Source of the DNA: Octopus sinensis | Lineage: Eukaryota | Assembly: GCF_006345805.1 (NCBI RefSeq) | Contig: NC_043000.1 | Location: 93,434,001 to 93,498,000 of the forward strand | DNA length: 64,000 nucleotides | Direction: 5' to 3' | Part shown: positions 17,801-19,170 of the stretch, piece by piece | Layout of the letters: each line of letters starts with the position of its first letter | Numbering within the stretch: the stretch's first letter is position 1 | Made by a program: the position numbers

Positions 17801-19170
17801 TACAAATATATATATGTATGTCATAATAAAATAAATATAAGAGAGTGGTCACTATATGGCTCACTCTAGCACCAGTTAATCCAAAAGGTTTCAACCACAA
17901 AAATACATGTTTCCCATGAAAGTCAGTACGATTGTTAGCTCACACGGACAGGGCAAATAAAAAATAACAAAAATACAGATTATTTTGGGACAATTGTTTC
18001 GCTATTAATGAATTAAATGTAATTTTACTTACAAAAAAATCCACTTGTAGCTCGTCAGCCAAAACTATCTGGATGAAATCCACTCAATCACACGCCAGAT
18101 TTTACCATAACGATAAATACGCGTGTGGTTCAATTGATTACATCCGACGTTATAATTCAAATGCCCCAACTAACAGCGCGCCAAACTTTCACGGAAAACA
18201 AATACAGCATTTAGAAATAAATGCAGCATAATTATAATTAATTAATAAGGGTGAGAGAATTAGATACTAATTTAATAGTATATCTATTCAACACCAAGTG
18301 GCCTAGTGCTCCGAGAAACCTGGATTATTATAATATTTTATAATATATTACAATATTTTTACAAAATAAATATAAGAGAGTGGTCGCGCTGTTAGTTGGG
18401 GCATTTGAATTATAACGTCGGATGTAATCAATTGAACCACACGCGTATTTATCGTTATGGTAAAATCTGGCGTGTGATTGAGTGGATTTCATCCAGATAG
18501 TCTTGGCTGACGAGCTACAAGTGGATTTTTTTGTAAGTAAAATTACATTTAATTCATTAATAGCGAAACAATTGTCCCAAAATAATCTGTATTTTTGTTA
18601 TTTTTTATTTGCCCTGTCCGTGTGAGCTAACAATCGTACTGACTTTCATGGGAAACATGTATTTTTGTGGTTGAAACCTTTTGGATTAACTGGTGCTAGA
18701 GTGAGCCATATAGTGACCACTCTCTTATATTTATTTTGTAAAAATATTGTAATATATTATAAAATATTATAATAATCCAGGTTTCTCGGAGCACTAGGCC
18801 ACTTGGTGTTGAATAGATATACTATTAAATTAGTATCTAATTCTCTCACCCTTATTAATTAATTATGTATGTCATATATATCTAATATAAATGTACACAC
18901 ATACACACACACACATATATATATTTATATCTGTATATACGTGCTTTTGTTTGTATACATATGCAAATATGTGTATATATAAATACATATACACACATGC
19001 TTACATATATATGTGTGTGTATGTATATATATATATATGTATGTATCCATACAAATAGATATATATATAATATACATATTTATTATATATATGTCTGTGT
19101 GTGTGTAATATAGATATATATATATGTATGCATGTATATATGTCTGTCTATTTCTCTGTGTGTCTATCTC

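What the first reader, a model, noticed from the sequence alone, without database searches (positions are those of the whole stretch)
17828..18866. Retrozyme-like element: circularly permuted 535-bp non-coding monomer with a hammerhead, plus an inverted copy
Seen: the 23-mer AAAATAAATATAAGAGAGTGGTC recurs at 17828 and 18363 (period 535). On the minus strand, 18385 to 17828 reads end of unit, 53-bp linker, start of unit, i.e. a head-to-tail junction. The same unit then follows in plus orientation from a different start point (18385-18866). Each copy has one hammerhead and no ORF. Established: metazoan non-LTR retrozymes are small tandem monomers with a type I hammerhead that yield circular RNAs, and PLE insertions often carry an inverted terminal segment. 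Inference: this copy was reverse-transcribed from a multimeric or circular ~535-nt RNA by a PLE enzyme with a template switch, and near-identity of the arms suggests it is young. It may be an undescribed cephalopod retrozyme family.
Basis: partly seen in the sequence, partly recalled or inferred. Interest (0 to 1): 0.9.

Follow-up and report, generated by a model that had tools for sequence, protein, structure and literature searches.

The report
Inverted hammerhead-bearing retroelement insertion
A 1-kb non-coding insert made of two oppositely oriented, circularly permuted copies of a roughly 535-base unit, each carrying a hammerhead ribozyme motif, looks like one retrotransposition event of an already known kind of small ribozyme-bearing mobile element.

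Summary
Window 17828-18866 is two head-to-head, permuted copies of one non-coding unit. The minus-strand arm (18385->17828, 558 nt) runs 23 nt past a 535-nt period. The plus-strand arm (18385-18866, 482 nt) lacks a 53-nt segment. The arms differ at 1 of 482 positions. The composite is flanked by a 10-nt direct repeat, GTATGTCATA, found nowhere else in the window.

Each arm has a complete type I hammerhead core: CUGACGA, GAAA, and a GUC cleavage triplet. Helix I has 5+7 bp. Helix II has 4 bp extended by an inserted hairpin. Helix III has 2 bp with a palindromic AAUU loop. Rfam's Hammerhead_1 model scores 27.3 and 30.0 bits, below its 34-bit gathering cut-off, and only in narrow searches.

Best reading: one target-primed insertion of a non-autonomous, Penelope-type or retrozyme-type RNA longer than one unit. 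Both nicked target strands were extended and the two cDNAs joined in the middle. This matches published Penelope-like element (PLE) behaviour.

Each strand carries only one hammerhead, so this locus does not meet the tandem criterion for an active retrozyme. Genome copy number, expression, host taxon and self-cleavage could not be tested. Verdict: new member of a known kind, moderate interest.

The parts
17816..17825 (.). Left copy of the target-site duplication GTATGTCATA. Identity extends to 13 nt from 17813 if the ambiguous TAT is included.
   Evidence: The 10-mer occurs only at 17816 and 18867 in the window, on either strand. 0 of 6000 local flank-position pairs gave a four-letter identical string of 10 nt or more.
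17826..17827 (.). Two bases (AT) between the duplication and the element. They may be filler or an ambiguous boundary.
   Evidence: Sequence reading.
17828..18385 (-). Left arm, RNA sense on the minus strand: B (18385->18234), L (18233->18181), A (18180->17828). It is 558 nt, one 535-nt period plus 23 nt.
18181..18233 (-). The 53-nt segment L, present only at the head-to-tail junction of the left arm and absent from the right arm. It contains a predicted 7-bp hairpin. It may be the counterpart of the PLE 'tail'.
   Evidence: The tail concept comes from PMC8557442 (passages) and PMC11167929 (main text).
17983..18064 (-). Type I hammerhead motif of the left arm. Predicted cleavage is 3' of the C at 17989.
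   Evidence: Descriptor hit. RF00163 scored 30.0 bits, E 4e-06, in a 116-nt search; the gathering score is 34. Helices I and II appear in the MFE, z -5.55.
18385..18866 (+). Right arm, RNA sense on the plus strand: A then B, 482 nt, without L. It shares base 18385 with the left arm as a 1-nt junction overlap.
18501..18582 (+). Type I hammerhead motif of the right arm:
- CUGACGA at 18507-18513.
- Helix II: GCUA 18514-18517 paired with UAGC 18561-18564, with an inserted hairpin between them.
- GAAA at 18565-18568.
- Helix III plus loop: ACAAUUGU at 18568-18575.
- Cleavage 3' of C 18576.
- Helix I: 18494-18506 paired with 18577-18589.
- C at 18502 breaks one helix I pair that the left arm keeps.
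   Evidence: RF00163 scored 27.3 bits, E 3.3e-05.
18867..18876 (.). Right copy of the target-site duplication GTATGTCATA.

Best explanation
Window 17826-18866 is one retrotransposition product of a small, non-coding RNA that carries a hammerhead and has a repeat period of about 535 nt. This is a Penelope-type non-autonomous element of the kind called a metazoan non-LTR retrozyme.

Inferred steps:
1. An endonuclease and reverse transcriptase supplied in trans, most likely from a Penelope-like element, made staggered nicks in an AT-rich, microsatellite-flanked target. Repair of the stagger gave the 10-13-nt duplication.
2. Both freed 3' ends primed reverse transcription on sense RNA.
3. The right-hand cDNA copied 482 nt (A-B). 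The left-hand cDNA copied 558 nt (B-L-A plus 23 nt). The left cDNA ran past one full period, so the template was multimeric, partially tandem (687 nt or more) or circular.
4. The two cDNA 3' ends met head to head and were joined at a 1-nt overlap (18385).

Shown directly: the anatomy, the duplication, the complete hammerhead core with its three helices, the lack of coding capacity, and the strong predicted self-pairing of the unit.

Inferred only: the enzyme, two-strand priming, the form of the template, and ribozyme activity.

The inserted copy has one hammerhead per strand, and helix III is weak and palindromic, the type said to need a second ribozyme copy. It is therefore probably an inert offspring copy, not a source of circular RNA. 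A transcript reading through both arms would fold into a long hairpin.
For: Anatomy and near-identity of the arms, 1 difference in 482.

A single insertion:
- GTATGTCATA abuts both ends and occurs nowhere else in the window.
- Only 0.235% of 20,000 random position pairs 1040 nt apart gave an identical string of 10 nt or more.
- 0 of 6000 local flank pairs gave a four-letter string of 10 nt or more.

Hammerhead:
- A generic type I descriptor found 2 hits in the window on both strands, both in this element. Of 100 simulated windows, 2 had any hit (mean 0.03).
- RF00163 aligned full length (model positions 1-45) at 27.3 and 30.0 bits, E 3.3e-05 and 4e-06, in 116-nt searches.
- Local folds form helices I and II, z -3.8 and -5.6.
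- The single difference between the arms lies in helix I. The left arm has the paired version and scores higher.
- ACAATTGT is a perfect palindrome. PMC4209133 (text parts 1-2 read) describes metazoan type I motifs as having a 1-2-bp helix III with a 2-4-nt palindromic loop and working as dimers.

Unit properties:
- GC is 32%. The circular MFE is -150.7 kcal/mol, z -6.4, with 68% of bases paired and helices I and II kept.
- There is no ORF over 89 aa and no significant Pfam hit.

Literature:
- PMC7229834 (sections 13, 14, 17 read): non-LTR retrozymes have a type I hammerhead, low GC, no LTR, PBS or PPT, duplications larger than 4 bp and self-paired circles. They occur in a mollusc, and PLEs are the proposed mobilisers.
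- PMC8557442 (passages): PLE insertions are often 5'-truncated with an adjacent inverted 5'-truncated copy, carry a 30-40-bp tail and favour microsatellites.
- PMC11167929 (main text): a purified PLE protein cleaves and extends both strands and starts reverse transcription internally, at AT-rich targets.
- PMC4209133: pairs of hammerheads 100-700 bp apart on opposite strands were seen in Schistosoma mansoni.
Against: - Rfam's curated gathering score of 34 bits is not reached. Nothing was reported in the whole-window search. The hammerhead was also missing from the 1.5-kb E<=10 search, so it surfaces only when very little sequence is searched.
- The descriptor was written after I had seen the motif.
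- There are only two near-identical copies, so no covariation test is possible.
- The hammerhead-consistent monomer structure is 5.6 kcal/mol above the local MFE, which pairs core bases GACGA with UUGUC. A two-copy cofold did not produce the extended helix III.
- No RT or GIY-YIG match appeared in any of the 26 window frames sent to Pfam, so no candidate mobiliser is visible here.
- The 3' ends of the two arms lie 129 nt apart in the unit, not the 30-40 nt reported between PLE initiation sites. L is 53 nt, longer than the published tail.
- The flanks are low-complexity: 314 of 6000 local position pairs give identical strings of 10 nt or more, all microsatellite-like.
- The 535-nt monomer exceeds the 150-450 bp given for metazoan retrozymes in PMC7229834, though it lies within the 51-972 bp of the 2026 preprint.
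Confidence: 0.58

Rival explanations
1. The insert is an ordinary Penelope-like element remnant. It would be the terminal-repeat (pLTR) region of an autonomous or internally deleted PLE family, inserted with the usual inverted 5'-truncated partner. No independent retrozyme RNA or circle would exist.
For: The architecture and hammerhead position are what PMC8557442 (passages) and PMC4209133 (text) describe for PLE ends. The 2026 preprint 10.64898/2026.07.22.740005 (Results and Discussion read) finds retrozymes and PLE terminal repeats to be sequence relatives, so the two are hard to separate at one locus. This locus has no same-strand tandem hammerheads.
Against: The two arms together close a 535-nt cycle, B to L to A to B, with no room for an ORF. 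The template was therefore a short non-coding repeat, not a 3-4-kb PLE unit. No RT or GIY-YIG signal appeared in the 26 frames tested.
Confidence: 0.2
2. The structure arose by DNA-level rearrangement. A pre-existing short tandem repeat would have been partly duplicated in inverted orientation by replication template switching or break repair, with no RNA intermediate at this locus.
For: The 1-nt junction overlap at 18385 and permuted breakpoints are also typical of microhomology-mediated rearrangements. The surrounding DNA is rich in microsatellites.
Against: The whole composite, not just one arm, is bracketed by a 10-13-nt direct duplication unique in the window. No further copy or array lies nearby. 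Both arms have their RNA-sense 3' ends facing outwards, as priming from the target predicts.
Confidence: 0.1
3. The inverted structure is an assembly or read artefact (fold-back chimera).
For: Near-identical inverted arms of 353 and 152 nt are the kind of structure that assemblers mishandle. PMC8557442 (passage) notes that PLE structures cause assembly problems.
Against: The structure is not a palindrome about the junction. The left side of 18385 is the start of B and the right side is the start of A. One arm contains a 53-nt segment that the other lacks, and the arms differ at one base. The ends carry a target-site duplication. A fold-back chimera would mirror flanking sequence too.
Confidence: 0.05
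4. The hammerhead-like motif is a chance look-alike inside an unrelated non-coding repeat, such as a SINE-like element. It would play no catalytic role.
For: The score is below Rfam's threshold. The two copies are not independent. An alternative pairing of the core is favoured energetically. Published minimal PLE hammerheads themselves cleave poorly in vitro (PMC4209133, text).
Against: All conserved core positions, the G10.1-C11.1 pair, a GUC triplet, a 6-7-bp helix I and a palindromic helix III co-occur. Such a motif is expected 0.03 times per window. It sits in an element whose architecture independently points to the PLE/retrozyme world. No tRNA-like or other Rfam family matched the unit.
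Confidence: 0.1

Closest known systems
Metazoan non-LTR retrozymes (Cervera and de la Pena 2020, PMC7229834; Li et al. 2026 preprint 10.64898/2026.07.22.740005)
   Same: Both have a type I hammerhead inside a non-coding, AT-rich repeat unit with no LTR, PBS or PPT, a duplication larger than 4 bp, and a strongly self-paired predicted circle. There is evidence of a template longer than one unit. Retrozymes are described in a mollusc (mussel).
   Different: - This is not a same-strand tandem array. It has one hammerhead per strand in inverted arms.
- The monomer is 535 nt, against 150-450 bp (2020), though within 51-972 bp (2026).
- Helix II carries a 39-nt insertion, which takes the motif below Rfam's threshold.
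- Expression and copy number are unknown.
Penelope-like element insertions with pseudo-LTRs, inverted 5'-truncated copies and a 'tail' (PMC8557442; PMC11167929; PMC4209133)
   Same: Both show head-to-head inverted copies, partial tandem junctions, a hammerhead in the repeated non-coding part, and an AT-rich or microsatellite target. A segment is present at the tandem junction but missing from one terminal copy. The footprint fits extension of both target strands.
   Different: There is no RT or GIY-YIG ORF, and the repeat cycle is only 535 nt. The 53-nt segment is longer than the 30-40-nt tail. The two 3' ends are 129 nt apart in the unit. Helix III is present (2 bp plus loop), whereas most minimal PLE hammerheads lack it.
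L1 twin-priming inversions (recalled from general knowledge; no paper read here)
   Same: Both are target-primed insertions in which both nicked strands prime cDNA, giving a 5' inverted and a 3' direct segment inside one target-site duplication, joined at microhomology.
   Different: In twin priming the two segments come from adjacent parts of one RNA with little overlap. Here the arms overlap by 353 nt of unit sequence, so two templates or a repeated or circular template are needed. There is no poly(A).
Schistosoma Sm-alpha and newt satellite 2 hammerhead repeats (as summarised in PMC4209133 and PMC7229834)
   Same: Both are short non-coding repeats with a type I hammerhead whose weak, palindromic helix III favours dimeric cleavage.
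   Different: Those are high-copy tandem or SINE-like families with demonstrated cleavage. Only one composite locus is visible here.

Membership tests
Hammerhead ribozyme, type I (Rfam RF00163) | Conserved core: C3 U4 G5 A6 N7 G8 A9, G12 A13 A14, the A15.1-U16.1 pair, and H17 not G | tested here: met
   CUGACGA, GAAA, the A-U pair and C17 are present in both arms.
Hammerhead ribozyme, type I (Rfam RF00163) | Three helices around the core, with helix I open-ended | tested here: met
   Helix I has 5+7 bp in the left arm. Helix II has 4 bp plus an extension. Helix III has 2 bp plus an AAUU loop.
Hammerhead ribozyme, type I (Rfam RF00163) | Score at or above the curated gathering threshold of 34 bits | tested here: not met
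   The scores are 27.3 and 30.0 bits. Nothing appeared in the gathering-threshold search of the window or in the 1.5-kb E<=10 search.
Hammerhead ribozyme, type I (Rfam RF00163) | Compensatory changes that keep the helices across copies | tested here: inconclusive
   There are only two copies, differing at one helix I base: U-A paired in the left arm, C.A unpaired in the right.
Hammerhead ribozyme, type I (Rfam RF00163) | Self-cleavage at the H17 site | not testable with these tools
   This needs in vitro transcription of monomer and dimer constructs.
Metazoan non-LTR retrozyme | At least two consecutive same-strand units, each with a complete hammerhead (criterion of 10.64898/2026.07.22.740005, section 5) | tested here: not met
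   There are 1.04 units on the minus strand and 0.90 on the plus strand, with one hammerhead per strand and no other copy in the window.
Metazoan non-LTR retrozyme | Non-coding, no LTR/PBS/PPT, GC below 50% | tested here: met
   The longest frame is 89 aa, with no significant Pfam hit in 7 frames. GC is 32%. PBS and PPT were not specifically searched; no tRNA-related signal was found.
Metazoan non-LTR retrozyme | Target-site duplication larger than 4 bp, when present | tested here: met
   The duplication is 10 nt, or 13 with ambiguous bases.
Metazoan non-LTR retrozyme | Unit size in the reported range | tested here: inconclusive
   535 nt is outside 150-450 bp (PMC7229834) and inside 51-972 bp (2026 preprint).
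Metazoan non-LTR retrozyme | Multi-copy in the genome and expressed as linear and circular RNA | not testable with these tools
   No eukaryotic genome or transcriptome collection was available. The predicted circle is 68% paired, z -6.4, which is a prediction only.
Penelope-like element (autonomous) | ORF with a telomerase-like RT and a GIY-YIG endonuclease | tested here: not met
   There is no such ORF within the duplication-bounded insert. No RT or GIY-YIG hit appeared in the 26 window frames scanned.
Penelope-like element insertion architecture | Partial tandem junction plus an adjacent inverted 5'-truncated copy, with a hammerhead in the repeated part and an AT-rich or microsatellite target | tested here: met
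   compared with passages of PMC8557442 and the main text of PMC11167929.
Penelope-like element insertion architecture | Optional 30-40-bp tail at one end, matching two adjacent RT start sites | tested here: inconclusive
   The 53-nt segment L is missing from the right arm and present at the left arm's internal junction. The arm 3' ends are 129 nt apart in the unit.

The most novel reading that the evidence does not exclude
The unit may belong to a so far undescribed lineage-specific retrozyme family. Its distinguishing features would be an unusually large (~535-nt) monomer and a hammerhead whose helix II carries an extra hairpin, which hides it from Rfam's threshold. In that case this locus would be a clean natural footprint of reverse transcription primed from both strands on a circular or multimeric ribozyme RNA. 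It would be in vivo support for what has been shown for a Penelope-like enzyme only in vitro.
Probability: 0.3. Interest if true: 0.5.

Novelty: new member of a known kind. Interest (0 to 1): 0.35.

Why it matters
If confirmed genome-wide, the finding would do three things:
- It would add a family with an atypically long unit and an extended helix II to the catalogue of animal ribozyme-bearing retroelements.
- It would show that threshold-based Rfam annotation misses such motifs.
- It would give a tidy in vivo example of the two-strand priming and more-than-unit-length copying proposed for Penelope-type retrotransposition.

It does not change the picture of what these elements are. The class, its link to Penelope-like elements and the inverted arrangement are all in print.

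Tried and rejected
- **Rfam at gathering threshold, whole window:** no match. **Rfam at E<=10 over 17600-19100:** only microsatellite-driven miRNA look-alikes, and no ribozyme of any class. The hammerhead appeared only in 116-nt searches.
- **Other copies in the window:** blastn, relaxed blastn and nhmmer found none. They showed only an internal imperfect palindrome of the unit, at positions 241-315.
- **tRNA or SINE head:** ARAGORN found 0 genes and no Rfam hit covered the unit.
- **Coding remnants:** I sent 10, 7 and 9 frames to Pfam. None reached a curated cut-off and none matched RT, GIY-YIG or a transposase. These were 26 chosen frames out of 68 of at least 110 aa plus shorter ones, not a full six-frame scan.
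- **Snap-back or fold-back origin:** rejected, because the arms are not mirror images about the junction.
- **MITE or foldback DNA transposon:** rejected, because the outer ends are not inverted copies of each other.
- **DIRS-like split repeats:** considered from memory and rejected, because there is a target-site duplication and no ORF.
- **Dimer cofold:** it gave a domain-swapped duplex, not the extended helix III. I treat this as uninformative.
- **TRF:** it cannot see a 535-nt period, because its longest period is 500.

Not checked:
- The source genome's copy number, transcriptomes, long reads and host taxon. No eukaryotic collection was on hand.
- The search for homologous proteins, the search of protein representatives, viral contigs and metagenome contigs, which were closed.
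- Genome contigs (bacteria and archaea only) and the phage, plasmid and E. coli collections. I left these unused as irrelevant.
- Supplementary figures and tables of PMC4209133, PMC7229834 and the 2026 preprint, which list species and motif families. They were closed and might already include the host's hammerheads.

Literature searches for a cephalopod retrozyme:
- ('hammerhead ribozyme' + 'octopus' + 'retrotransposon'): 3 papers, 2 listed, none about such an element.
- badly posed and swamped by unrelated papers.
- ('retrozyme' + 'cephalopod'): 2 papers, 1 listed (PMC8557442), where the words occur apart.
- In this library I found no description of such a family.
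Full report
**What is there**

On the minus strand, 18385 down to 17828 reads B (152 nt), L (53 nt) and A (353 nt). The last 23 nt of A repeat the first 23 nt of B. This arm is therefore 558 nt, one 535-nt period plus 23 nt.

On the plus strand, 18385-18866 reads A then B (482 nt) without L. 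The 23-mer occurs three times with no mismatch, and no shuffle of 100 had a match.

The arms differ at one of 482 comparable positions: 18502 C in the right arm against T at the matching place (18063) in the left arm. No other copy, close or distant, lies in the 64 kb.

The composite is bracketed by a direct repeat, GTATGTCATA, at 17816-17825 and 18867-18876. The repeat is 13 nt if the TAT that could belong to either the element or the target is counted.

- The 10-mer occurs only at these two places in the window, on either strand.
- Of 20,000 random position pairs 1040 nt apart, 0.235% gave an identical string of 10 nt or more.
- The flanks are microsatellite-rich, so a local control is less kind. 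314 of 6000 local position pairs gave 10 nt or more. None of the 6000 gave such a string containing all four bases, as the observed one does.

I take this as a target-site duplication. The whole 1039-1041 bp would then have entered in one event.

**The hammerhead**

The right arm reads as follows:
- CUGACGA at 18507-18513.
- GCUA (18514-18517) paired with UAGC (18561-18564).
- GAAA at 18565-18568.
- A 2-bp helix III with an AAUU loop at 18568-18575.
- C17 at 18576.
- CCAAAAUAAUCUG (18577-18589) pairing back to CAGAUAGUCUUGG (18494-18506).

A generic type I descriptor run over both strands of the window found exactly two hits, the two arms. Of 100 first-order Markov simulations of the window, 2 had any hit, with a mean of 0.03. 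I wrote the descriptor after seeing the motif, and the two hits are copies of each other.

Rfam gave nothing at gathering thresholds, and no hammerhead in a 1.5-kb search at E<=10. In 116-nt searches, where the filters are laxer, RF00163 Hammerhead_1 aligned over its full length. The scores were 27.3 bits (E 3.3e-05, right arm) and 30.0 bits (E 4e-06, left arm), against a gathering score of 34. The shortfall comes with a 39-nt insertion in loop 2.

Local MFE folds form helices I and II exactly as the ribozyme requires, with z -3.8 and -5.6. The one base that differs between the arms is in helix I. The left arm has the paired U and the better score.

ACAATTGT is a perfect palindrome. PMC4209133 (text parts 1 and 2 read) describes the usual metazoan type I design this way: a 1-2-bp helix III with a 2-4-nt palindromic loop, active as a dimer.

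Against activity:
- The nearest-neighbour model prefers pairing GACGA of the core with UUGUC. The hammerhead-consistent monomer fold is 5.6 kcal/mol worse than the MFE.
- A two-copy cofold did not give the extended helix III.
- There is no covariation evidence and no cleavage assay.

**The unit as an RNA**

The 535-nt unit has 32% GC. Folded as a circle in the hammerhead polarity, it has an MFE of -150.7 kcal/mol (z -6.4 against 100 dinucleotide shuffles) with 68% of bases paired, and helices I and II are kept. The antisense circle gives -108.5 kcal/mol (z -5.1).

The longest stop-to-stop frames are 87 and 89 aa, antisense to the ribozyme. None of 7 frames had a significant Pfam match. No tRNA-like part was found.

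**How the composite most likely arose**

In RNA sense, both arms have their 3' ends at the outer edges, and their 5' ends meet at 18385 with a 1-nt overlap. This is the footprint expected if both nicked target strands primed cDNA synthesis and the two cDNAs were then joined.

It is not a snap-back or fold-back product. The sequence to the left of the junction is the start of B and the sequence to the right is the start of A, so the arms are not mirror images.

Frangieh et al. (PMC11167929, main text read) report three things for a purified Penelope-like protein:
- It cleaves and extends both strands.
- It prefers AT-rich targets.
- It starts reverse transcription at internal sites. The sequence between the two start sites corresponds to the optional 'tail' of genomic copies.

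Craig et al. (PMC8557442, passages read) describe partial tandems, an adjacent inverted 5'-truncated copy, a 30-40-bp tail and a bias for microsatellites. Cervera and de la Pena (PMC4209133) saw hammerhead pairs 100-700 bp apart on opposite strands in Schistosoma mansoni.

The 53-nt L is present at the internal head-to-tail junction but missing from the right arm. It may correspond to such a tail, but it is longer than published tails. The two arm 3' ends are 129 nt apart in the unit, not 30-40 nt. I leave that correspondence open.

**What the template must have been**

The two arms together close the cycle B to L to A to B. The shortest linear RNA containing both is B-L-A-B, 687 nt, or 1.28 units. 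A longer multimer or a circle would do equally well, and nothing here tells them apart.

The arms overlap by 353 nt of unit sequence. Classical twin priming on one RNA molecule is therefore unlikely. Two template molecules, or a repeated or circular one, are needed. A 535-nt cycle leaves no room for a PLE ORF, so the template was a non-autonomous element.

**Is it a retrozyme?**

It works like one on paper: a type I hammerhead, non-coding, AT-rich, a duplication larger than 4 bp, a self-paired predicted circle, and a cDNA longer than one unit. These are the features given in PMC7229834 (sections 13, 14 and 17 read), which also documents retrozymes in a mollusc.

This locus fails the operational criterion of at least two consecutive same-strand units with complete hammerheads (preprint 10.64898/2026.07.22.740005, section 5 read). 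Each strand has one hammerhead, of the weak-helix-III kind that is said to need a partner. The copy is best seen as an inert offspring insertion.

Whether a tandem, expressed master family exists cannot be told from the window. The same preprint argues that retrozymes are derivatives of PLE terminal repeats. The rival reading, 'just a PLE end', therefore differs mainly in whether ORF-free tandem arrays and circles exist.

**Context**

None of the 26 frames I sent to Pfam, from across the window, matched RT, GIY-YIG or a transposase at a curated cut-off. This was a selection, not a full six-frame scan. No candidate mobiliser is visible.

The host taxon could not be established. In the held library I found no paper describing a cephalopod retrozyme. 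The supplements that list species and motif families were closed.

**Verdict**

The feature is a real, probably recent, single insertion of a ribozyme-bearing non-autonomous retroelement of the Penelope/retrozyme kind. The insertion is taken as probably recent because of the intact duplication and the 1/482 arm difference, but gene conversion between arms cannot be excluded.

It is a new member of a known kind. Two mildly unusual traits are the 535-nt unit and the extended helix II, which drops the motif below Rfam's threshold. Interest is moderate to low: 0.35.

Noticed in passing
window 42817-43164 and 12 other places (e.g. 40940-41291, 25500-25684, 48733-48883, 27796-28075, 3692-4001): A dispersed repeat family of about 300 bp, at 71-91% identity to the query copy and often next to TA/CA microsatellites. 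It looks like a SINE-type element. ARAGORN found no tRNA gene in the window.
   Followed up: partly
window 17260-17400: A 69-70-bp unit duplicated in tandem at 96-100% identity, about 430 bp upstream of the insert.
   Followed up: no
window 6182-7202 (-), 2208-2483 (+), 51940-52212 (-), 52884-53177 (-), 16607-16888 (-): From memory, these short open frames resemble LINE ORF2 C-terminal parts, an RT motif and mariner-type transposase ends. Pfam gave no significant match for any, so this stays an unconfirmed impression of a transposon-rich region.
   Followed up: partly
window 18954-19057 and 17748-17821: Sub-threshold Rfam miRNA 'hits' (mir-297, mir-3149 and others, 30-47 bits against gathering scores of 81-100) fall on TA/CA microsatellite DNA flanking the insert. 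They are low-complexity look-alikes.
   Followed up: no
window 17828-18866: A transcript reading through both arms would form a hairpin with stems of about 353 and 152 bp. This is a possible source of small RNAs against the family. It is inferred from the arm identities and was not tested.
   Followed up: no
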